Below, one piece after another: positions 39,546 to 47,548 of a stretch of 64,000 nt of DNA (position 1 is its first letter; every line of letters starts with the position of its first letter). The notes under the pieces were generated by a model. It was not told the origin of the DNA. It saw only the letters and a list, made by a program, of their open reading frames with translations, and did no database searches. A program made the position numbers and the translations under genes. Origin of the DNA: Cenarchaeum sp. (lineage in GTDB: Archaea > Thermoproteota > Nitrososphaeria > Nitrososphaerales > Nitrosopumilaceae); NCBI GenBank assembly GCA_965242695.1, contig CBDESU010000001.1:640001-704000 (forward strand), read 5' to 3'.

Positions 39546-40211
39546 TCACGCCCCGCCGCCCCGCTCTTGGCCCCGCCCCGCATTCTCTCCACCAAGCAGG
39601 TCGATCAGCGGCCCGCTCGTCAGCTGAACCCTGATGTGCCCGAACTCGTCGTCGTTGCCCTCGATGTCGGCGAACGCCGCGTCCGACGTGATGATCACGG
39701 AGGCGTTAGCACCCTCGGCGGACGCGTAGTGTATCAGGTCGAACGGCCCGATCCCGCGGTGCCTGTACGTCCGGCTCTTGGCCACGTACACTGCACGCCC
39801 CCTGTGCGTCAGCTCCTTGCCGCACAGGATGACGTAGTCGGAATGGACTTCATCTGCATCTACAATTTCTAGAATACCCTGTTCAATCATGTTGAATATG
39901 ATCCCGATCGCGCGGGCAACGGCCTTGTCCGCATCCGCCTCAACGCTGGCCCGCTCCTCCTCGCTCCCCGACTGGCGCTTGTGCGACATTGTGACCTTCT
40001 TGCGGACGGCCCAGATCAACTCCAGTATGACGGCGTACGTGGTGATCAGGCGGCATCCGCTACGCACAGCCGCATCGAGCACCCTGACCGCATCGGCGTG
40101 GTGGATATCCTCCAAGACCGATGCGGCCACAAACGCGCTGGTCTCGACAAAGGCATCGATGCCGGCAAAGTCGCCAATGTCGACTCCAATGCCATCACTT
40201 GGCGTCGTCAA
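39546..40211 (-). CDS. PIN-domain protein, unit 1 of right array
   Basis: FVETSAFVA..D.HH, ILEL, FDLIH, IITSDAAF. Confidence 0.8.
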   Translation of the reverse strand: MTTPSDGIGVDIGDFAGIDAFVETSAFVAASVLEDIHHADAVRVLDAAVRSGCRLITTYAVILELIWAVRKKVTMSHKRQSGSEEERASVEADADKAVARAIGIIFNMIEQGILEIVDADEVHSDYVILCGKELTHRGRAVYVAKSRTYRHRGIGPFDLIHYASAEGANASVIITSDAAFADIEGNDDEFGHIRVQLTSGPLIDLLGGENAGRGQERGGGA

Positions 40212-40941
40212 TCTTGACCAACTCGTACCCGTCGGGGGGGCAGTTTCCTCTTATCATCGACACCGTCTCGACGGACGACAGCCCGGGACCTAGCTCCCCG
40301 AACAGATCGTCGATGCACTTTGGCTCCGGCGGAAATACCGGATCGTCGCCGATGGCCTTTCTCCACTCGCGTACTGTTTCAATATTCTTCCTCACGACAT
40401 CCCTGCAGACTTTGCCTCTGTGCCGCATGTCGGACTTGGGCAGGCCCGATCCAGGCGGGTCGGCCGCCCTCAGCCTCGCCCGCAGCGCGTCCGCCTTGGC
40501 CCTGAACGCGGCGATTCTTCCCCTCAGCTTCTCCAAGTCGCCGACCGGTTCGCCGTCCCCGCCGCTCCTGTACGACACGGCTGTGTCGTACAGGATCGCC
40601 CTTGCCTCGCGGTACGCCAAGCGGGTGACATGCATCCCCCCGTCCTCAACCGGCCTGTCTACAATGTCGGCCGCGTCGGCAAAGATGTCCTCCAGGAGGG
40701 ATGCCATCCTCATGCCCGTGTGGTATCCGGACCTCGACGACACCTCCCCCATCCGGGCGGCGATTTTGCCGCACTTTTCCATGTCTAGCAGGCCGAGCGG
40801 ATCGATGAGCGACACGAACAGCTCCCTGAACTCGGCCCTGCCGTCAGTTGTCGCCTTTGAAGCTGTTCCTGCGCCGACCCTGCGGCGCCCGCGGCGGGCC
40901 GCCACCTTGACCTTCTGCTTCTGTCCCTGAGCCACCTGCAC
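40195..40941 (-). CDS. PIN-partner protein (putative large antitoxin), unit 1
   Basis: Overlaps the PIN start by 17 nt; VapB-like tail LFGELGPGLSSVETVSMIR; GTG start with TTAATA upstream. Confidence 0.65.
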   Translation of the reverse strand: MQVAQGQKQKVKVAARRGRRRVGAGTASKATTDGRAEFRELFVSLIDPLGLLDMEKCGKIAARMGEVSSRSGYHTGMRMASLLEDIFADAADIVDRPVEDGGMHVTRLAYREARAILYDTAVSYRSGGDGEPVGDLEKLRGRIAAFRAKADALRARLRAADPPGSGLPKSDMRHRGKVCRDVVRKNIETVREWRKAIGDDPVFPPEPKCIDDLFGELGPGLSSVETVSMIRGNCPPDGYELVKIDDAK

Positions 40942-41155
40942 GATTCCGGGGCCACACGCACCCGCTATTAACGATTTGCCCTGCGCCGCTGGCGGCGCGG
41001 GCCGGCCGGCAGGGGCCAGCTGCCCACGCAGCCGCCGCATGCCGGATATGTGCCGGACTGCATGCCGGCCCGCGCGGCCTGCCAACCACACTCGGGCCTT
41101 GCGGGGCGCTTGCGGCCGCCCTGAGGCTGGCCATCAGCGGGGATTAGGAGGGCTG

Positions 41156-41794
41156 TCAGCCGCCGTCCCCGCCGCCGAGCAGGTCGATCAGCGGCCCGCC
41201 CGTCAGCTGCACCCTGATGTGCCCGAACTCGCCGCCGCCGCCCTCGATGTCGGCGAACGCCGCGTCCGACGTGATGATCACGGAGGCGCCCGCGCCCTCG
41301 GCGGACGCGTAGTGTATCAGGTCGAACGACCCGATCCCCCTGTGCCTGCACGCTCGGTTATCGGCGACGTACACCGCGTGACCGCTGTGCACGAGAGCAT
41401 TGCCGCACAGCCCGAAACAGTCGTGCGACTTTCCCTTGGCCACTACGATCTTTAGAACGCCCCGACGGACCATGTTGTATATGATTTTGATCGCGCGGGC
41501 AACGGCAGCATCGGCGCTCGCCTCCACACCCGCACGCTCCTCCTCGCTCCCAGACTGGCGCCTGTGCGACGTTATGACCTTCTTGCGGACGGCCCCGATC
41601 AGCTCCAGTATGACGGCGTACGTGGTGATCCGGCGGCATCCGCTGCGCACCGCCGCATCTAGCACCCTGACCGCATCGGCGTGGTGGATATCCTCCAAGA
41701 CCGATGCGGCCACAAACGCGCTGGTCTCGACACAGACGTCGATGGCGACAAGTGCATCGACGTCGACCTCTATGCCGTCACTTGGCGTCGTCAA
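41156..41794 (-). CDS. PIN-domain protein, unit 2
   Basis: Paralog of 39546..40211. Confidence 0.8.
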   Translation of the reverse strand: MTTPSDGIEVDVDALVAIDVCVETSAFVAASVLEDIHHADAVRVLDAAVRSGCRRITTYAVILELIGAVRKKVITSHRRQSGSEEERAGVEASADAAVARAIKIIYNMVRRGVLKIVVAKGKSHDCFGLCGNALVHSGHAVYVADNRACRHRGIGSFDLIHYASAEGAGASVIITSDAAFADIEGGGGEFGHIRVQLTGGPLIDLLGGGDGG

Positions 41795-42518
41795 TCTTCA
41801 CCAGCTCGTACCCGTCCGGGGGACAGTTGCCCCTCATCATGGACACCGTCTCGGCGGACGACAGCCCTGGCCCTAGCTCCCCGAACAGATCGTCGATGCA
41901 CTTTGGCTCGGGCGGAAATACCGGATCGACGCCGGCGGCCACTCTAGAAGCCCGCACTTTTTCAACATCCTCCTTCCTCACATCCCTGCAGATTCTGCCC
42001 TTGTACAACGTGTCGAGCTTTGGCAGGCCCGATCCGGGAGGGTCGGCCGCCCTCAGCCTCGTCCGCAGCGCGTCCGCCTTGGCCCTGAACGCGGCGATTC
42101 TCCCCCTCAGCTTCTCCAAGTCTCCGACCGGCTCGCCGTCCCCGCCGCCCCTGTACGACACGGCCGTGTCGTACAGGACGGCCCTCGCCTCCCTGTACGC
42201 AATGGTGGTGAGGTGCAGAGCCCCGTCATCTACCGGCCTACCCACGATATCGGACATGTCGGCAAAGATGTCCGCCAAGAGGGATGCCATTCTCACGCCC
42301 ATATGGTATCCGGACCTCGACGACACCTCCCCCATCCGGGCGGCGATCCTGCCGCACTTTTCCATGTCGAGCAGGCCCAGCGGATCGATGAGCGACACGA
42401 ACAGCTCCCGGAACTCGGACTTGCTGTCGACCGTCGCCACCGCAACTGCGCCGCTTCTGCGGCGCCCTTGATCAGCCGTTCTTGCCACCTTCTGCCTCTG
42501 CCCATGCGCCGCCTGCAC
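41778..42518 (-). CDS. PIN-partner protein, unit 2
   Basis: 246-aa paralog. Confidence 0.65.
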   Translation of the reverse strand: MQAAHGQRQKVARTADQGRRRSGAVAVATVDSKSEFRELFVSLIDPLGLLDMEKCGRIAARMGEVSSRSGYHMGVRMASLLADIFADMSDIVGRPVDDGALHLTTIAYREARAVLYDTAVSYRGGGDGEPVGDLEKLRGRIAAFRAKADALRTRLRAADPPGSGLPKLDTLYKGRICRDVRKEDVEKVRASRVAAGVDPVFPPEPKCIDDLFGELGPGLSSAETVSMMRGNCPPDGYELVKIDDAK

Positions 42519-42908
42519 GACACCGTGGGCCTATGCTCCCGCTATTAGCGATTTGCCCTGCACCGCAGGCGGAGCAGGCGCGGCAGGCAGGGGCGCCCGC
42601 CGCCCGCGCAGCCGCCGCGTGCCGGATATGTGCCGGACTGCATGCCGGCCCGCGCGGCCTCCGATCGCACTCGGGCCTTGCGGCCGTCCTGCGGCTGGCT
42701 ATCCGCGGGGATTAGGAGGGCCGCTCGCCGCCGTTTCAGCCGCCGAGCAGGTCGATGAGCGGCCCGCCCGTCAGCTGCACCCTGATGTGCCCGAACTTGT
42801 CGTCGTTGCCCTCGATGTCGGCGAACGCCGCATCAGACGTGATGATCACGGAGGCGCCCGCGTCCTCGGCGAATGCGTAGTGTACCAGGTCGTATCTATG
42901 AGCTACCC

Positions 42909-42916
42909 TTTATAAA
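42909..42916 (-). promoter_or_regulatory. TATA box (TTTATAAA) at the IS end; predicted circle-junction promoter
   Basis: After joining the IS ends it would lie 21 nt upstream of GTG 44814, a spacing like other genes in the window. Confidence 0.6.
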
Positions 42917-43009
42917 GAAAACCGGCCCCGGCCGCCCCTAGGCGTGGTTTTTCACGCATCCGGGCAGAGCCTCCCCTAGGGTGTCGTGTCCCTCTCGGCG
43001 TCCAATGCG

Positions 43010-43140
43010 GTATATGGATCGGACATTTATCTATCCGGGGACGAACCCCACTACCGTCTTCATCCATTTGCCAGGGTCACGGCATTTACACACACGGGGA
43101 CTAACCCCATACAGGCACTCGCCGACGAGACCCTGACCAT
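43010..43140 (-). ncRNA. Putative bridge/seek RNA with two internal guide loops
   Basis: Stems CAGGGTC/GACCCTG and ATGGAT/ATCCAT each enclose a GGGG-N5-CCCC hairpin; loop segments match the predicted donor junction and the PIN target. Confidence 0.7.
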
Positions 43141-43146
43141 GATGCA

Positions 43147-44814
43147 TCACGCTGCCCTCGCGGGCGCAGATGCGGCCGCGGCCTTGCGCCGGCAGCCCTT
43201 GAACTGCGCACTCCCCTCCGCCATGCAGTTGACAAAGGTGAGGTTCTTCTTGAGCATCCAAAAGACGATGCGGAGCAGCTTGTTCACCGCCGCTATCATG
43301 GCCTTCTTTGCGGGCATCCTCTCGCACAGCCTCTCGTAGTACCTCGTGATGTCCGAGTCGACGTGCCCGACGTGCACAAGCACGGCCTCGCACAGTATCC
43401 ACCTGACGATCTTGCTTCCCGTCTTGGTTATGCGCCCGTGCTTTACAATGTCGGCAGAGCTCCTGTCCGACGGGACCAGCCCAAAGTACGGCGCCAGGGC
43501 GTACGGGCTGCTAAACCGCTCTATGGGGCCTATCCATGCCGCCAGGGCAAGCGCGATGAAGTTGCCAAAGCCCGGAAAGGACAAGAGTAGCTGCGCGGCG
43601 GGGTTGGCCGCCACCATGTCCCTTATCCGCAGGTCGGTCTTTATCACCTGGTCGTCGATGCCCGAGATCATGTCCAGGCACTGGTTGATCCTCCACTCGC
43701 CGAGCCTGCGGAGGTTCGAGACGAACGTGTCCGACCACTTTGCCCCCTCGACCTTGATGGCCTTTTGCAGAAGGATGGCCTGGATGAACACCTTGTACTT
43801 TGCCCTCGCCCGCGTCAGGCGGGCCCTGTGCGACGTGGCCTCCCTCTCCTTCACCGTCTTGTCGTCTGGGACGTAGCACGGGGGGATGCTCTTTATGCGC
43901 AGCAACTCGGCAAGATTCCTGGCATCGACCCTGTCGTTCTTGTTCTTGGACTTGGCGATCAGCGCAGTCTGCAGCGGGTTTGACAGGATCATGTCGAATC
44001 CCATCGCCTCTATGAACCGGTAGACCGCGTACCACACCGACGACGACTCGACAACGCACCTGGTCCTGTCGGGCGGCAGCCCCGCGAAGTACGACCTGAT
44101 GGCATCGAAGCTGTTGATGATTTTGGCCTCCTCTACGATCGTCCCAGCCTCGTCGGATACGGCGATCTGCAGCGTGCGCTTGTGCAGGTCTACCCCCACG
44201 TAGAACATTCCCTCCGACACAGCCGTTCTCTCCATTTCAGCGACCTCCTTTGCCGTCAGGGCCCTGGTGCTTTTCCTGGCCGCTGCCCGCGCCCTTTCCC
44301 CCTTTGCCACAATCCTTTTCTTCATGCCACTGACATTCCGTGACGCCGCGGAACTGCCGCCCCTCTTGGGCTTGGCCGAGGGCCGAGGCTTGGGCTTGGC
44401 CGCTGCCCGCGCCCTTTCCCCCTTTGCCACAATCCTTTTCTTCATGCCACTGACATTCCGTGACGCCGCGGAACTGCCGCCCCTCTTGGGCTTGGCCGAG
44501 GGCCGAGGCTTGGGCTTGGCCGCTGCCCGCGCCCTTTCCCCCTTTGCCACAATCCTTTTCTTCATGCCACTGACATTCCGTGACGCCGCGGAACTGCCGC
44601 CCCTCTTGGGCTTGGCCGAGGGCCGAGGCTTGGGCTTGGCCGAGGGCCGAGGCTTGGGCTTGGCCGCTGCCCGCGGCCTTGCTTCCGTACCTGTGCGTCG
44701 TTGCACGGCCGCGCCCTCGCGGGGGGCCATGTGTATCTTTGCGACGTCGGCCTCGCCGTTCCCAGCGCCCGACTTGGCACGCCCACCGTCTGAATTGCGT
44801 TTCTGGCCCCTCAC
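43147..44814 (-). CDS. IS110-family DEDD transposase/recombinase with a basic repeat-rich N-terminal extension
   Basis: YVGVDLHK, VVESS, KNDRVDA (DEDD); FPGFG..GLVPSDRSS..GRITKTG C-terminal domain. Confidence 0.93.
   Translation of the reverse strand: MRGQKRNSDGGRAKSGAGNGEADVAKIHMAPREGAAVQRRTGTEARPRAAAKPKPRPSAKPKPRPSAKPKRGGSSAASRNVSGMKKRIVAKGERARAAAKPKPRPSAKPKRGGSSAASRNVSGMKKRIVAKGERARAAAKPKPRPSAKPKRGGSSAASRNVSGMKKRIVAKGERARAAARKSTRALTAKEVAEMERTAVSEGMFYVGVDLHKRTLQIAVSDEAGTIVEEAKIINSFDAIRSYFAGLPPDRTRCVVESSSVWYAVYRFIEAMGFDMILSNPLQTALIAKSKNKNDRVDARNLAELLRIKSIPPCYVPDDKTVKEREATSHRARLTRARAKYKVFIQAILLQKAIKVEGAKWSDTFVSNLRRLGEWRINQCLDMISGIDDQVIKTDLRIRDMVAANPAAQLLLSFPGFGNFIALALAAWIGPIERFSSPYALAPYFGLVPSDRSSADIVKHGRITKTGSKIVRWILCEAVLVHVGHVDSDITRYYERLCERMPAKKAMIAAVNKLLRIVFWMLKKNLTFVNCMAEGSAQFKGCRRKAAAASAPARAA
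44281..44664. repeat. Three identical 120-bp tandem repeats plus a 24-bp duplication in the transposase 5' region
   Basis: 44281-44400, 44401-44520 and 44521-44640 are identical. Confidence 0.95.
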
Positions 44815-45227
44815 ACGGTTACATCCTGCCGCCGTCGTCCACCGCGCACCCCTTGTGATCTAGCGCATTGTCGCACATGCCTGCAAAGTCGAGTGGCAGT
44901 CTTTTTTGCTTCATAATCTTTAGTATGCCCTGCTTGGACATGTCATCTGCAACCTTGAACATATGGTAAACGGCTGCATCTGCGCTAGCATCCACGGCCG
45001 CCCGCTCCTCTTCGCTCCCCGACCGGCGCTTGTGCGATGTTGTGACTTTCTTGCGGACTGCGCCGATCGCCTCCAACATGACAGGATGCGATATGACCAG
45101 GTCGCATCCAGTACGCACAGCCGCATCGAACACCCTGATCGCATCGTCGTGGTGCATGTCCTAGGCGATCGTCGCCGCCATGAAGGAGCTGGTGTCGACA
45201 TAGCCGATAATGTCGCCCACCGCGACG

Positions 45228-45974
45228 TCACTTGCCGCTGCCAATCTTGACCATCTCGTACCCTTCGGGGGGCCACTTCCCTCTCTCCATGGCTACCATG
45301 TCGGCCGCCGACAGCCCGCCCCTAAATTCCTCAAATACCTCGTCAAGGCACTTCACCCCTGGAGGAAATATCGGGTCCTCGCCGGCGGCCACGTGATGCG
45401 CGCGTATCTCTTCAATGTCCTCCCTGACGACGTCCCTGCAGACTTTGCCCTTGTACAATGTGTCAAACTTGCGCAGGCCCGATCCGGGCGGATCTGCCGC
45501 CCTCAGCCTCGCGCGCCTTGCGTCGGCCTCTGACCTGAGCACGGCAATCTTCCTCCCAAGCTCCTCCAGGCCGCCGACCGGCTCGTCGTCCCCGCCGCCC
45601 CTGTACGACACGGCCGTGTCGTACAGGGCGGCCCTCATCTCCCTGTAGGCAACGGTGGTCTGGTGCAGCGCCCCGTCCTCGACCGGCCTGTCCACGATGT
45701 CGGCCGCGTCGGCAAAGATGCCTGACAGGAGGGACGACATCCTCACGCCCGCGTGGTATCCGGACCTCGACGACACCTCCCCCATCCGGGCGGCGATCCT
45801 GCCGCACTTTTCCATGTCTAGCAGTTCTGCAGGATCGATGAGCGACACGAACAGCTCCCTGAACTCGGCCCTGCCGTCAGTTGTCGCCTTTGAAGCTGTT
45901 CCTGCGCCGACCCTGCGGCGCCCGCGGCGGGCCGCCACCTTGACCTTCTGCTTCTGTCCCTGAGCCACCTGCAC
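45228..45974 (-). CDS. PIN-partner protein, unit 3
   Basis: Paralog with the most divergent C-terminus (EVFEEFRGGLSAADMVAMERG). Confidence 0.65.
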   Translation of the reverse strand: MQVAQGQKQKVKVAARRGRRRVGAGTASKATTDGRAEFRELFVSLIDPAELLDMEKCGRIAARMGEVSSRSGYHAGVRMSSLLSGIFADAADIVDRPVEDGALHQTTVAYREMRAALYDTAVSYRGGGDDEPVGGLEELGRKIAVLRSEADARRARLRAADPPGSGLRKFDTLYKGKVCRDVVREDIEEIRAHHVAAGEDPIFPPGVKCLDEVFEEFRGGLSAADMVAMERGKWPPEGYEMVKIGSGK

Positions 45975-46176
45975 GATTCCGGGGCCATACGCACCCGCTA
46001 TTAGCGATTTGCCCTGCGCCGCTGGCGGCGCGGGCCGGCCGGCAGGGGCCAGCTGCCCGCGCAGCCGCCGCATGCCGGATATGTGCCGAACTGCATGCCG
46101 GCCCGCGCGGCCTGCCAACCGCACTCGGGCCTTGCGGGGCGCTTGCGGCCGCCCTGAGGCTGGCCATCCGCGGGGA

Positions 46177-46824
46177 TTAGGAGGGCTGTTCTCCGCCACC
46201 GTCCCCGCCGAGCAGGTCGATGAGCGGCCCGCCCGTCAGCTGCACCCTGATGTGCCCAAATTCGTTGTCGTTGCCCTCGATGTCGGCGAACGCCGCGTCC
46301 GACGTGATGATCACGGAGGCGCCCGCGCCCTCGGCAGACGCGTAGTGGATCAGGTCGAACGGCCCGATCCCCCTGTGCCTGCACGCTCGGTTATCGGCGA
46401 CGTACACCGCGTGACCGCTGTGCACAAGAGCCTTGCCGCACAGCCCGAAATAGTCGTGCGGCTTTTCGACCGCCACGATCTTTAGAACGCCCCGACGGAC
46501 CATGTCGTATATGATTTTGATCGCGCGGGCGACGGCAGCATCGGCGCTCGCCTCCACGCCCGCACGCTCCTCCTCGCTCCCCGACTGGCGCTTGTGCGAC
46601 GTTATGACCTTCTTGCGGACGGCCCCGATCAACTCCAGTATGACGGCGTGCGTGGTGATCAGGCGGCAGCCGCTGCGCACCGCCGCATCTAGCACCCTGA
46701 CCGCATCGGCATGGTGGATGTCCTCCAACACCGACACGGCCACAAACGCGCTGGTCTCGCCAAAGACGTCGATGGCGACAAGTGCATCGATGTCGACCTC
46801 AATATCGTCACTTGGCGTCGTCAA
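46177..46824 (-). CDS. PIN-domain protein, unit 4
   Basis: Paralog, closest to unit 2. Confidence 0.8.
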   Translation of the reverse strand: MTTPSDDIEVDIDALVAIDVFGETSAFVAVSVLEDIHHADAVRVLDAAVRSGCRLITTHAVILELIGAVRKKVITSHKRQSGSEEERAGVEASADAAVARAIKIIYDMVRRGVLKIVAVEKPHDYFGLCGKALVHSGHAVYVADNRACRHRGIGPFDLIHYASAEGAGASVIITSDAAFADIEGNDNEFGHIRVQLTGGPLIDLLGGDGGGEQPS

Positions 46825-47548
46825 TCTTCACCAACTCGTACCCGTCCGGGGGACAGTTGCCCCTCATCATGGACACCGTCTCGGCGGACGACAGCCCAGG
46901 CCCGAGCTCCCCGAACAGATCGTCGATGCACTTTGGCTCGGGTGGAAATATTGGATCCTCGCCGGCGGCCTTAAACCACGCGCGCACTTCTTCAATGTCT
47001 TCCCTTGCGACATCCCTGCAGATTCTGCCCTTGTACCACGTGTCGATCTTTGGCAGGCCCGATCCGGGCGGGTCGGCCGCCCTCAATCTCGCCCGCAGCG
47101 CGTCCGCCTTGGCCCTGATCGCGGCGATTTTTCCCCTCAGCTTCTCCAAGTCGCCGACCGGCTCGCCGTCCCCGCCGCCCCTGTACGACACGGCCGTGCC
47201 ATACAGGACTGCCATCGCCTCCCTGTACGCAACGGTGGTGAGGTGCAGCGCCCCGTCCTCTACCGGCCTGCCCACAATGTCGGCCGCATCTGCAAAGATG
47301 TCTGCCAGGAGGGATGCCATCCTCACGCCCATATGGTATCCGGACCTCGACGACACCTCCCCCATCCGGGCGGCGATCCTGCCGCACTTTTCCATGTCGT
47401 GCAGGCCGAGCGGATCGATGAGCGACACGAACATCTCCCTGAACTCGGACTTGCTGTCGACCGTCGCCACCGCACCTGCGCCGCTTCTGCGGCGCCCTTG
47501 ACCAGCCGTTCTTGCCACCTTCTGCCTCTGCCCACGCGCTGCCTGCAC
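46808..47548 (-). CDS. PIN-partner protein, unit 4
   Basis: 246-aa paralog. Confidence 0.65.
   Translation of the reverse strand: MQAARGQRQKVARTAGQGRRRSGAGAVATVDSKSEFREMFVSLIDPLGLHDMEKCGRIAARMGEVSSRSGYHMGVRMASLLADIFADAADIVGRPVEDGALHLTTVAYREAMAVLYGTAVSYRGGGDGEPVGDLEKLRGKIAAIRAKADALRARLRAADPPGSGLPKIDTWYKGRICRDVAREDIEEVRAWFKAAGEDPIFPPEPKCIDDLFGELGPGLSSAETVSMMRGNCPPDGYELVKIDDAK

What the first reader, a model, noticed from the sequence alone, without database searches (positions are those of the whole stretch)
42893..44821. Archaeal IS110 with a readable bridge RNA apparently programmed against the PIN toxin gene
Seen: the 3' non-coding end forms two parallel stem-loops (43071-43136 and 43014-43067), each with a central GGGG-N5-CCCC hairpin. 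In loop 2, TTATCTAT (43027-43034) equals part of the predicted circle junction ACGGT-TA-TCTAT, and ACCGT (43053-43057) is the reverse complement of its other arm (one-base offset relative to the core). In loop 1, the minus-strand GTGCCTGTA (43110-43118) matches 9/9 the intact PIN unit 1 at 39759-39767, the position homologous to the insertion point, and TACACAC (43087-43093) matches the flank TACATCC at 5/7. The occupied copy lacks about 24 bp beside the junction, so its own left target arm is missing. Known: IS110/IS1111 recombinases use bispecific RNAs with target- and donor-binding loops. Inference: an RNA-guided element targeting a multicopy toxin family.
Basis: partly seen in the sequence, partly recalled or inferred. 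Interest (0 to 1): 0.85.

Follow-up and report, generated by a model that had tools for sequence, protein, structure and literature searches.

The report
Archaeal bridge-RNA insertion sequence in PIN gene
This is a mobile element in an archaeal genome that carries its own guide RNA; it belongs to a known RNA-guided class and landed in one copy of a repeated PIN-domain gene, where half of its landing site was later lost.

Summary
Window 42895-44819, flanked by TA at 42893-4 and 44820-1, is an IS110-family element on the minus strand. Its recombinase passes Pfam and NCBIfam cut-offs. A 145-nt two-loop RNA (42998-43142) lies just downstream of the gene, as in IS1111-type elements.

A covariance model of this RNA finds it in 19 of 151 genomes of the same archaeal family. 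21 of 27 base pairs show compensatory changes. Across relatives, the donor-loop guides track the element ends and the variable target-loop guides track the flanks (0 of 5000 shuffles reach the observed match).

In this copy the 5' target guide reads TACAGGCAC. That is 9/9 with an intact PIN paralog at the homologous codon. It is 8/9 with the empty orthologous site recovered from two sponge-metagenome runs. Those contigs also show that the occupied allele lost 24 bp of right target. The other target guide matches poorly.

There is one copy, no RNA evidence and no second insertion. "Programmed against a toxin family" is therefore only partly supported. I file it as a new member of a known kind. 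An archaeal TATA box fixed at the outward-facing end is a modest extra.

The parts
42893..42894 (.). TA core copy at the right end (RE side in element orientation)
   Evidence: TA flanks both ends. Empty-site contigs carry a single TA. The same TA rule holds at empty and occupied sites in G022.
42895..44819 (-). The insertion sequence proper. In element orientation the LE starts ACCGTGTGAG and the RE ends CTCATAGA.
   Evidence: Flank homology to intact units stops here. X6 and X8 contigs skip 42891/42894 to 44820. The ends are homologous to those of relatives.
44820..44821 (.). TA core copy at the left end (LE side)
43147..44814 (-). Longest open frame of the recombinase (555 aa). The conserved catalytic part starts near the ATG at 44208 (MFYVGVD).
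   Evidence: Pfam DEDD_Tnp_IS110 E 1.1e-18 and Transposase_20 E 3.7e-20. NCBIfam NF033542 scores 201.1 bits against a cut-off of 140, over residues 205-524. IS621 transposase 8wt6_A matches at E 1.6e-10.
44277..44642 (-). Perfect 3 x 120-bp tandem repeat. It is in frame with the recombinase and upstream of the catalytic domain.
   Evidence: TRF finds period 120, 3.0 copies, 100% matches. The G004 relative has an analogous array at the same place. An X10 contig skips 360 bp here.
42998..43142 (-). Bridge/seek RNA as delimited by covariance model R1
   Evidence: 123.6 bits, E 5.9e-26, the only hit in the window. Structure supported by A1 and A2 covariation.
43071..43137 (-). Target-binding loop: outer stem, inner stem, internal loop and hairpin (43096-43108)
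   Evidence: Helices 1, 2 and 4 have 6 of 7, 4 of 4 and 5 of 5 pairs with changes on both sides.
43110..43118 (-). 5' target guide, RNA GUGCCUGUA. It pairs with the top strand of core + right target, TACAGGCAC.
   Evidence: 9/9 to unit 1 at 39759-39767. 8/9 to the empty orthologous site GTACCTGTA. Same register as in relatives. Three listed strain differences fall here.
43087..43095 (-). 3' target guide, RNA GUGUGUGUA. By the family rule it should equal left target + core.
   Evidence: Here only TG+TA(+A) match the flank GGATG-TA-A.
43014..43067 (-). Donor-binding loop: outer stem, internal loop and hairpin (43037-43049)
   Evidence: Helices 5 and 6. Guide columns are conserved, entropy 0.51-0.58 bits against 1.39-1.77 in the target loop.
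43027..43034 (-). 3' donor guide, RNA AUAGAUAA. It equals RE end + TA + first LE base.
   Evidence: Matches CTCATAGA-TA-A. In relatives the guide 7-mer equals the RE end in 20 of 22, and the variable R position agrees in 22 of 22.
43053..43057 (-). 5' donor guide, RNA ACGGU. It is complementary to LE bases 1-5, ACCGT.
   Evidence: Here ACGGU pairs with ACCGT, where relatives have AUGGU with ACCAT. Found in 12 of 16 relatives.
42909..42916 (-). TATA-like box TTTATAAA. It starts 24 nt before the end of the RE-side core and reads outward.
   Evidence: A box at -25..-20 is present in 19 of 21 distinct RE ends, against 0 of 21 in a window shifted 60 nt. Its function is inferred.
42920..42933 (-). 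GC hairpin followed by a T run, a possible 3' end of the RNA
   Evidence: Terminator-like match. The number found in the region is not above that in shuffles, so this is only a hint.
44822..45157 (-). N-terminal fragment of the interrupted PIN gene (unit 3), ending ...DDGGRM then TA(A)
   Evidence: 50.8% identity to unit 1 over 132 aa. An in-frame stop lies further upstream.
42740..42892 (-). C-terminal fragment of the interrupted PIN gene (unit 3)
   Evidence: 82% identical to unit 1 over 57 aa. 90% DNA identity to unit 2.
39759..39767 (+). Intact homologous site in PIN unit 1 (GTGCCTG-TA). It covers codons R-H of the conserved YRHRG stretch.

Best explanation
This is an IS110-family insertion sequence with the IS1111-type layout, living in an archaeal genome.

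**Components.** It encodes a DEDD/serine RNA-guided recombinase. Starting 4 nt after the stop codon (43142 against 43147) it encodes a roughly 145-nt bridge (seek) RNA with two internal loops.
- The 3' loop (donor loop) pairs with the element's own joined ends. AUAGA-UA-A equals the right end plus core. ACGGU is complementary to the first five bases of the left end.
- The 5' loop (target loop) specifies the landing site. Its 5' strand pairs with the top strand of TA + right target. Its 3' strand equals left target + TA, followed by a dinucleotide that in relatives copies the first two bases of the left end, much like a handshake guide.

**Inferred cycle.** The element circularises at TA. A TATA box fixed about 22 nt from the right end then reads across the junction into the recombinase gene and the RNA behind it. 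The ribonucleoprotein then recombines the circle with a TA site that matches the target loop.

**This copy.** It landed at the TA of a Tyr codon (..ATG-TAC-AGG-yAC..) in one unit of a four-unit array of PIN-domain genes, in the gene's own orientation. The right-target guide fits that site. Afterwards 24 bp of right target next to the right end were lost. The bridge RNA can therefore no longer recognise the right junction, and this copy is probably stranded.

**Shown:** family membership, RNA structure, guide rules across relatives, the TA core, the empty site and the 24-bp loss.

**Inferred:** that the RNA is made and bound, the junction promoter, the order of insertion and deletion, and immobility.
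For: **Protein.** Pfam and NCBIfam hits lie above their cut-offs. The alignment to IS621 transposase places D, E, D, D and the GL-P----S serine at the matching positions. The identity of those IS621 catalytic residues is recalled, not taken from a call.

**RNA structure.**
- RNAalifold on 9 relatives gives 27 pairs, 14 of them with compensatory changes.
- On 41 model hits (37 distinct), 94.7% of cells are paired, against 34-46% when partners are slid. 21 of 27 pairs change on both sides.
- The model hits 19 of 151 genomes of the family, and the window exactly once.

**Guides across relatives.**
- Target-loop guide columns are variable (1.39 and 1.77 bits). Donor-loop guide columns are conserved (0.58 and 0.51 bits).
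- The donor guide 7-mer equals the right end in 20 of 22 distinct elements. The variable A/G position agrees in 22 of 22. The complement of the left end is found in 12 of 16.
- Guide against flank, one insertion per distinct guide and this element left out: longest right-target run 5.95 against 3.34 shuffled (0 of 5000). Anchored left-target run 3.06 against 0.62 shuffled (0 of 5000).

**Site and layout.**
- Core TA: empty against occupied repeats in G022, and the empty orthologous site in X6 and X8.
- The guide order, top-strand match 5' of bottom-strand match with the NCR downstream, is what is reported for IS1111-type seekRNAs (PMC11187229, abstract and sections 6 and 9).

**This copy.**
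- The guide is 9/9 to unit 1 and 8/9 to the empty site, where the one difference would be a G.T wobble.
- The insertion point is the homologous TAC codon.
- A different study's run, X5, holds the same occupied junction with 0 differences over 633 nt.
Against: - The flanks actually present do not fit the target loop. On the right only the C after TA agrees. On the left only 2 nt next to TA agree.
- The 9/9 match is to a paralog. The nearest orthologous empty site is 8/9.
- No site in the genome matches both target guides. The joined 16-mer has 0 hits at up to 1 mismatch and none in a PIN gene at 2.
- There is one copy only, so this lineage offers no second insertion in this genome.
- No RNA run holds the stretch, so expression is untested.
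- The two TA dinucleotides that bound the lost 24 bp make it formally ambiguous which TA was used.
- The fold energy of the whole end is not unusual.
- Subterminal inverted repeats are short, 7 bp, and match only 5/7 in this copy.
Confidence: 0.85

Rival explanations
1. The element inserted at the other TA, 24 bp away (..GCGCG-TA-yGACCTGG in element orientation), and the 24 bp were lost on its left side. The 9/9 guide match to the PIN site would then be a coincidence.
For: The lost segment is bounded by TA on both sides in the X8 empty allele. The two scenarios therefore give the same product.
Against: - The right target at that TA (CGACCTG) shares only its first base with the guide-predicted CAGGCAC.
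- The guide 9-mer occurs only 23 times in 7.8 million positions. One of them sits exactly at the first TA of the homologous site.
- The guide register is the one used by relatives.
Confidence: 0.05
2. Unit 3 is a chimera. The element sat in another PIN unit, and homologous recombination between units or between element copies joined unrelated flanks, which would explain the missing 24 bp.
For: The left flank is about 90% identical to units 2 and 4. The first roughly 150 nt of the right flank find no nucleotide match, and further out identity is 79-82%. At protein level the values are 82% and 51%.
Against: The empty-site contigs of X6 and X8 carry the same pair of flanks in one piece. They show 3-5 differences over 132-144 nt on the left and 51-53 over 681 nt on the right. 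This combination of flanks therefore predates the insertion.
Confidence: 0.04
3. The conserved 3' structure is a recombinase-binding or transcript-end element with no guide function. Site choice would be made by the protein.
For: No RNA or binding data exist for this clade. Several relatives show weak matches on one side.
Against: - The variable loop strands follow the flanks in 19 distinct 5' guides and 17 distinct 3' guides (0 of 5000 shuffles).
- Within G022, a G-to-C guide change goes with a GTCTA-to-CTCTA flank change in 5 of 7 copies.
- The protein family is the one shown experimentally to use such RNAs (PMC11208160 passages; PMC11187229).
Confidence: 0.03
4. The element has evolved to use the PIN gene family as a multicopy safe harbour, or to disarm it. 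The guide would be aimed at the conserved (Y/F)RHRG-coding stretch shared by many paralogs.
For: - The right-target 7-mer CAGGCAC is present in units 1, 2 and 4. Close variants (6/7) occur in further paralogs at the same codons.
- Relatives of the element use multicopy targets, for example a 67-bp palindromic repeat in G022.
Against: - There is a single insertion.
- The left guide does not fit any paralog.
- Only unit 1 has both the TA core and the 7-mer.
- Variant guides in other samples do not equal any paralog site listed.
Confidence: 0.15

Closest known systems
IS1111-type members of the IS110 family with seekRNA/bridge RNA (ISEc11, ISPa11, ISKpn4; Siddiquee et al. 2024, PMC11187229; Durrant et al. 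2024, PMC11208160)
   Same: - DEDD recombinase with the GL-P----S motif.
- Long non-coding region and guide RNA downstream of the gene.
- The strand complementary to the target top strand lies 5' of the strand matching it.
- A donor loop matches the joined ends.
- Short subterminal inverted repeats, a dinucleotide core and multicopy targets in relatives.
   Different: - The host is archaeal.
- The RNA matches no Rfam 15 family.
- The subterminal repeat is only 7 bp.
- The core is TA.
- A complete archaeal TATA box sits in the right end. I recall, from no call here, that bacterial members instead form a split -35/-10 junction promoter.
- In two same-genus elements, in-frame tandem repeats lie upstream of the catalytic domain.
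- Placement of the protein within the IS1111 clade by phylogeny was not tested.
IS621 bridge recombinase and bridge RNA (PDB 8wt6; Durrant 2024; Hiraizumi 2024, 2026)
   Same: - The same protein family (E 1.6e-10).
- A two-loop RNA with separate target and donor loops.
- Each loop reads both strands around a 2-nt core.
- A dinucleotide after the left-target guide copies the donor, like a handshake guide (PMC13626964 abstract).
   Different: - The IS621 RNA lies upstream of the gene, with the guide order reversed relative to the gene.
- The IS621 core is CT (recalled, from no call here).
- Sequence identity is low and only partial stretches align.
ISHvo10 of Haloferax volcanii (closest named element)
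   Same: An archaeal IS110-family transposase. It is the best named hit, 34.8% identity over 90% of the query. PMC11187229 section 6 lists it among diverged relatives of IS1111.
   Different: Model R1 finds nothing in or around it. The best hit is 4.8 bits, E 1.4, with filters off. It is reported to have long non-coding regions on both sides.

Membership tests
IS110 family (RNA-guided DEDD recombinase elements) | Recombinase with DEDD_Tnp_IS110 and Transposase_20 domains | tested here: met
   Pfam E 1.1e-18 and 3.7e-20. NCBIfam NF033542 scores 201.1 bits against a cut-off of 140.
IS110 family (RNA-guided DEDD recombinase elements) | Catalytic D-E-D-D and C-terminal serine present | tested here: met
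   The alignment to IS621 pairs vgvDlhk/IGIDTAK, vvEsss/CIEATG, ndrvDarnla/TDTVDARMLA and GLVPSDRSS/GLTPRRYES. That these are the catalytic residues of IS621 is recalled from the literature.
IS110 family (RNA-guided DEDD recombinase elements) | No long terminal inverted repeats; a 2-nt core present once in the empty site and at both junctions | tested here: met
   TA lies at 42893-4 and 44820-1. There is a single TA in the empty-site contigs and in G022 empty sites.
IS110 family (RNA-guided DEDD recombinase elements) | Structured non-coding RNA with two internal loops in a non-coding end | tested here: met
IS110 family (RNA-guided DEDD recombinase elements) | One loop complementary to the joined ends (donor) | tested here: met
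   This copy: AUAGAUAA and ACGGU. Relatives: 20 of 22 and 12 of 16.
IS110 family (RNA-guided DEDD recombinase elements) | The other loop complementary to both strands of the target | tested here: inconclusive
   Met across relatives. In this copy the right-target guide fits the reconstructed site (9/9 to the paralog, 8/9 to the ortholog). The left-target guide fits only 2 nt plus the core.
IS110 family (RNA-guided DEDD recombinase elements) | The RNA is expressed, binds the recombinase and directs recombination | not testable with these tools
   No RNA run holds the stretch. This needs bench work.
IS1111 subgroup | Long non-coding region and guide RNA downstream of the recombinase gene | tested here: met
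   The stop codon is at 43147 and the RNA starts at 43142. The right end is 252 nt long.
IS1111 subgroup | Top-strand-complementary guide lies 5' of the bottom-strand-complementary guide | tested here: met
   (definition).
IS1111 subgroup | Subterminal inverted repeats of 7-17 bp | tested here: inconclusive
   Read by eye. There is a 7-bp repeat, 4 nt inside the LE and 2 nt inside the RE. It is TATGTGC/GCACATA and perfect in L012. In this copy it is TGTGAGG against TATGAGC, 5/7.
IS1111 subgroup | Recombinase branches inside the IS1111 clade | not tested
   No tree with named IS1111 and IS110 references was built. The closest named element is ISHvo10 at 34.8%.
Type II toxin-antitoxin PIN (VapC-like) toxin, for the target gene | PIN domain | tested here: met
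   PF01850, E 7e-12, 46.5 bits against a cut-off of 23.6, for unit 1.
Type II toxin-antitoxin PIN (VapC-like) toxin, for the target gene | Small upstream antitoxin of a known family | tested here: not met
   The upstream overlapping gene is 246-323 aa. It matches nothing in Pfam, NCBIfam or PADLOC.
Type II toxin-antitoxin PIN (VapC-like) toxin, for the target gene | Toxicity neutralised by the partner | not testable with these tools
   Needs expression assays.

The most novel reading that the evidence does not exclude
A clade of bridge-RNA recombinases native to ammonia-oxidiser-like archaea, some of them sponge-associated, has rebuilt the IS1111 scheme on archaeal transcription: a complete TATA promoter in the right end fires across the circle junction. 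The clade is being reprogrammed in the wild. Sister copies in other sponge samples differ at 3 of the 9 positions of the right-target guide. This lineage is aimed at the conserved catalytic-motif codons of a multicopy PIN gene family, which it uses as a safe harbour or disarms.
Probability: 0.15. Interest if true: 0.65.

Novelty: new member of a known kind. Interest (0 to 1): 0.5.

Why it matters
Bridge/seek RNAs were established in bacterial elements. In archaea the recombinases are catalogued: 662 archaeal homologs are counted in bioRxiv 10.1101/2024.06.21.599552 (passages read). Two full-text searches returned no paper describing an archaeal guide RNA with natural targets.

This locus, with its relatives, gives four things:
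- A covariance model for an RNA family that Rfam 15 does not detect.
- About 20 natural guide-target pairs.
- An empty and an occupied allele of the same site.
- Natural guide variants between populations.

It also suggests how such elements couple expression to circularisation with an archaeal promoter. That is useful for anyone looking for bridge recombinases that work with TBP/TFB-type transcription. It does not change the known mechanism.

Tried and rejected
**Leads that gave nothing**
- Rfam scan of 42500-45300 at E up to 10: only four microRNA-model hits at E 1.4-4.4, far below their gathering scores.
- AC as the core (my first reading): rejected. G022 empty sites read GCA-TA-CGG, which fits only TA.
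- Close relatives of the recombinase: none in genome contigs or metagenome contigs with the single protein.
- The same element by a 22-nt exact pattern: none in either collection.
- Other copies in the own genome: none.
- A site fitting both target guides: none.
- Orthologous empty site in the four same-genus genomes: no close match. The best was 72% in G004.
- Model R1 on ISHvo10: no hit.
- PADLOC on the PIN and partner genes: no hit.
- Sigma-70 promoter scan: 0 sites, and the wrong promoter type for an archaeon.
- Expression: no RNA holder is listed among the 14 runs, so nothing can be said.
- A possible G.U-wobble fit of the left guide to the far end of the lost 24 bp was considered and dropped as within chance.

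**Tools and files not available**
- Supplementary files were not opened. Durrant et al. Supplementary Table 5 may already list predicted bridge RNAs for archaeal ISfinder entries, which bears on novelty.
- Structure prediction, fold search, complex prediction, the search for homologous proteins, the search of protein representatives and the protein-atlas search were not used. Family assignment was already clear.

**Caveats on counts**
- The guide-flank sets rest on ends found by regular expressions in 41 model hits. 29 had a right end and 23 a left end. The rest were not scored.
- In one search right ends were located with the element's own donor guide. One search repeated this with a generic pattern.
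- Kin are not independent. therefore keeps one insertion per distinct guide.
- Table 3 is truncated (160 rows not shown), so the clustering of differences in the guide is only a lower-bound impression.


Full report
**What is there**

The region 42893-44821 interrupts one unit of a tandem array. The array has four two-gene units on the minus strand. Each unit is an unknown 246-323-aa gene followed by, and overlapping, a 212-221-aa PIN-domain gene.

The intact PIN genes lie at 39546-40211, 41156-41794 and 46177-46824. The interrupted one is split into 44822-45157 (N-terminal part) and 42740-42892 (C-terminal part).

The genome is archaeal. The archaeal SSU (1450.5 bits) and LSU models win their Rfam clans on the rRNA locus.

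**The element**

The minus-strand open frame 43147-44814 carries DEDD_Tnp_IS110 and Transposase_20. It scores 201.1 bits on NCBIfam NF033542, "IS110 family RNA-guided transposase", against a cut-off of 140.

It aligns to the solved IS621 transposase (8wt6_A, E 1.6e-10) with the acidic residues and the GL-P----S serine in register. The catalytic role of those IS621 residues is recalled, not taken from a call.

The closest named element is ISHvo10 of Haloferax volcanii, at 34.8% identity. The element is single-copy in its genome. Three other IS110-family genes in the genome are only 26-30% identical.

**Boundaries and core**

Homology of the left flank to the intact units stops at 42892.

I first read the core as AC. 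Relatives in genome G022 corrected this. They sit in a 67-bp palindromic repeat. Unoccupied copies read ..TTATGCA-TA-CGGTCTAAT.. and occupied ones read ..TTATGCA-TA-[ACCATATG...CACATGGA-TA]-CGGTCTAAT...

The element proper is 42895-44819, with TA on either side.

**The RNA**

Downstream regions of recombinase homologs (40-45% identity) from five other genomes share one architecture.

- An alignment of nine gives an RNAalifold consensus of 27 pairs, 14 of them with compensatory changes.
- The covariance model R1 built from it hits the window once, at 42998-43142 on the minus strand, with 123.6 bits.
- R1 hits 19 of 151 genomes sampled from the same family, in 9 of 27 genera.
- On 41 hits (37 distinct rows) 94.7% of pair cells are standard pairs. 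Slid controls give 34-46%. 21 of 27 pairs change on both sides. That alignment is fitted to the model, which favours the structure. The independent MAFFT alignment shows the same helices.
- Rfam 15 has no family that matches. R1 does not detect anything near ISHvo10.

**What the loops read**

The four loop strands behave as in bridge/seek RNAs.

- *Variability.* The donor-loop strands are conserved (0.58 and 0.51 bits per column). The target-loop strands are the most variable part of the RNA (1.39 and 1.77 bits, against 0.74 for stems).
- *Donor loop.* With ends located by a generic pattern, the 3' donor strand equals right end plus TA in 20 of 22 distinct elements. Its one variable position agrees in 22 of 22 (12 G/G, 10 A/A). 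The complement of the first five left-end bases lies in the 5' donor strand in 12 of 16. In this copy the pair is ACGGU/ACCGT, where most relatives have AUGGU/ACCAT.
- *Target loop.* The reverse complement of the 5' strand matches TA plus right flank. The 3' strand matches left flank plus TA. It continues with two bases that copy the start of the left end. These are AC in most, AT in L020 and L101, and GC in the G004 element.
- *Permutation test.* One insertion per distinct guide was kept and this element left out. The longest right-side run averages 5.95 against 3.34 for shuffled pairings (19 guides, 0 of 5000). The anchored left-side run averages 3.06 against 0.62 (17 guides, 0 of 5000). The uncollapsed test gave the same answer.
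- *Exceptions.* Not every copy fits. Several have five or fewer matching bases on one side. In G022, 2 of 7 copies carry flanks that fit the guide of the sister variant rather than their own. That is what trans-acting RNAs from co-resident copies would give.
- *Literature.* The order, top-strand-complementary strand first, with the RNA downstream of the gene, is the order reported for IS1111-type seekRNAs and the reverse of IS110-type (PMC11187229, abstract and sections 6 and 9; PMC11208160, passages).

**This copy and the PIN gene**

The 5' target strand is GUGCCUGUA. By the family register this specifies TA-CAGGCAC.

- Unit 1 has exactly this at 39759-39767, at the TAC-AGG-CAC codons (Y-R-H) of the conserved YRHRG stretch. 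Units 2 and 4 have TG-CAGGCAC.
- The 9-mer occurs 23 times in the genome on both strands. Apart from the guide itself, only this one lies in a PIN gene.
- The interrupted unit ends ..AGG-ATG-TA at the element. The insertion point is therefore the homologous Tyr codon.
- The 3' target strand GUGUGUGUA fits poorly. TG+TA and one further base match the actual left flank. It is 4/9 to unit 1.
- No genomic site fits both strands.

**The missing 24 bp**

Contigs of two sponge-metagenome runs of one study (X6, X8) cross the site without the element. They join 42891/42894 to 44820 with 25/22 extra letters. The empty allele reads ..GGTC-ATACGCGCCGATTCCGCGGTACCTG-TACATCC.. on the plus strand.

This has four consequences.

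- The TA core and both boundaries are confirmed by an orthologous empty site.
- The right target there is 8/9 to the guide. The single difference would be a G.T wobble.
- The occupied allele really has lost 24 bp next to the right end.
- The same contigs carry both flanks (3-5 differences on the left, 51-53 in 681 nt on the right). The uneven divergence of the two halves of unit 3 is therefore older than the insertion. A chimeric origin is unlikely.

In the empty allele the lost segment is bounded by TA on both sides. A small deletion between short direct repeats is the simplest cause. It also leaves a formal ambiguity about which TA was used. The guide match strongly favours the first.

A run from a different study (X5) holds the same occupied, deleted junction without a single difference over 633 nt.

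Without the right target, the RNA cannot pair with the right junction. By analogy with IS621, precise excision needs that pairing (PMC13626964, abstract). This copy is therefore probably stranded. This is inference.

**Variation elsewhere**

The same runs hold copies of the element that are diverged by a few percent, while their unit 3 is empty. Those copies must sit elsewhere or in co-occurring strains.

Loose ends show at least two different left flanks in X6 and another right flank in X10.

Six substitution sites are listed inside the 145-nt RNA. Three lie in the 9-nt right-target guide: 43113 A>T, 43114 G>T and 43117 A>G. This gives three different guides in X6, X8 and X10. The table is truncated, so this is suggestive only. 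It is still what natural reprogramming would look like.

I could not recover the matching flanks. Read laying allows one call, and exact-pattern scans of two other collections found nothing.

**Expression logic (inferred)**

A TATA-like box sits at a fixed place in the right end. It starts 20-25 nt before the end of the core in 19 of 21 distinct right ends. The other two have TTTATTAA at the same place. A window shifted 60 nt upstream gives 0 of 21. Most relatives have a purine-rich stretch just upstream of the box.

In an archaeon this would start transcription a few bases beyond the core. In a circle that is inside the left end, reading into the recombinase gene and the RNA that follows the gene's stop codon after 4 nt. 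In the chromosome it would read into the flank.

In this GC-rich copy no TATA-like sequence precedes the RNA. The RNA is probably cut from the recombinase transcript. A GC hairpin with a T run at 42920-42933 could end it (not above chance).

The element lies in the same orientation as the PIN gene, so host read-through could also feed it.

**Comparison and verdict**

In mechanism and layout this is an IS1111-type bridge/seek-RNA element. Membership of the IS110 family is met on every sequence criterion I could test.

IS1111-subgroup membership is met for RNA position and guide order. It is borderline for the subterminal repeat (7 bp; 5/7 in this copy; read by eye). It is untested by phylogeny.

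The new parts are the host domain, an RNA family absent from Rfam, the TATA-in-the-right-end arrangement, and the natural empty/occupied/variant series.

Archaeal IS110 recombinases are already catalogued. Bridge RNAs were predicted for most ISfinder IS1111 entries. Their supplementary tables, which I could not open, may include archaeal ones.

The claim that the element is aimed at a toxin family is only half supported. One guide fits, one does not. There is one insertion. The "toxin" is a PIN-domain protein whose partner matches no known antitoxin family.

Noticed in passing
window 44277-44666: A perfect 3 x 120-bp tandem repeat, plus a 24-bp repeat, lies in frame upstream of the recombinase catalytic domain. 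It encodes a basic K/R/P/A-rich 40-aa unit. The same-genus G004 element (L007) has about six copies of a different 32-aa basic unit at the same place. An X10 contig skips 360 bp here and X5 lacks one 24-bp unit. This may be a coding N-terminal extension or a hypervariable leader.
   Followed up: partly
window 39546-47548; genome C1 and C2: Four tandem units of an unknown 246-323-aa gene overlapping a PIN-domain gene. tblastn also finds about a dozen more PIN paralogs scattered over both contigs. The partner gene has no Pfam, NCBIfam or PADLOC match.
   Followed up: partly
window about 45150-45250 (minus strand): The N-terminal part of the interrupted PIN unit has an in-frame stop (..MAATIA*DMHHDD..) where the paralogs read ..VLEDIHHAD... 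The unit therefore carries a second lesion besides the insertion.
   Followed up: no
G022 loci L045-L074: A 67-bp palindromic, MITE-like repeat (ATTAGAC..ATGCATAAT....ATTATGCAT..GTCTAAT) is present in at least 25 places. It is the landing site of the G022 elements, which can enter either arm in opposite orientations.
   Followed up: partly
L020 (G017) and L007 (G004), right ends: Tandem duplications of the right end, 51 bp in L020 and 15 bp in L007. In L020 the sequence after the first copy of the end matches the element's own target guide (TACATGT). This suggests recombination into its own end.
   Followed up: no
window about 44783-44790 and left ends of L004, L012, L013, L026: About 30 nt inside the left end there is a second, same-sense copy of the 5' donor-guide motif. 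It is AGACGGT here and AGATGGT in most relatives (AGATGTT in L013), so it varies together with the guide. In the relatives it overlaps a possible ATG start.
   Followed up: no
G022 copies L085, L053 against L046, L048-L050: Two sister guide variants coexist (reverse complements AAGTCTAAC and AACTCTAAC). 5 of 7 copies have flanks that fit their own guide. 2 of 7 fit the other variant's guide, as expected if the RNAs act in trans.
   Followed up: partly
G000 C2:865135-866163, C1:708399-709418, C1:1346148-1347080: Three further IS110-family recombinase genes lie in the same genome, 26-30% identical to this one. One is only about 4.4 kb beyond the window end. Model R1 does not hit near them.
   Followed up: no
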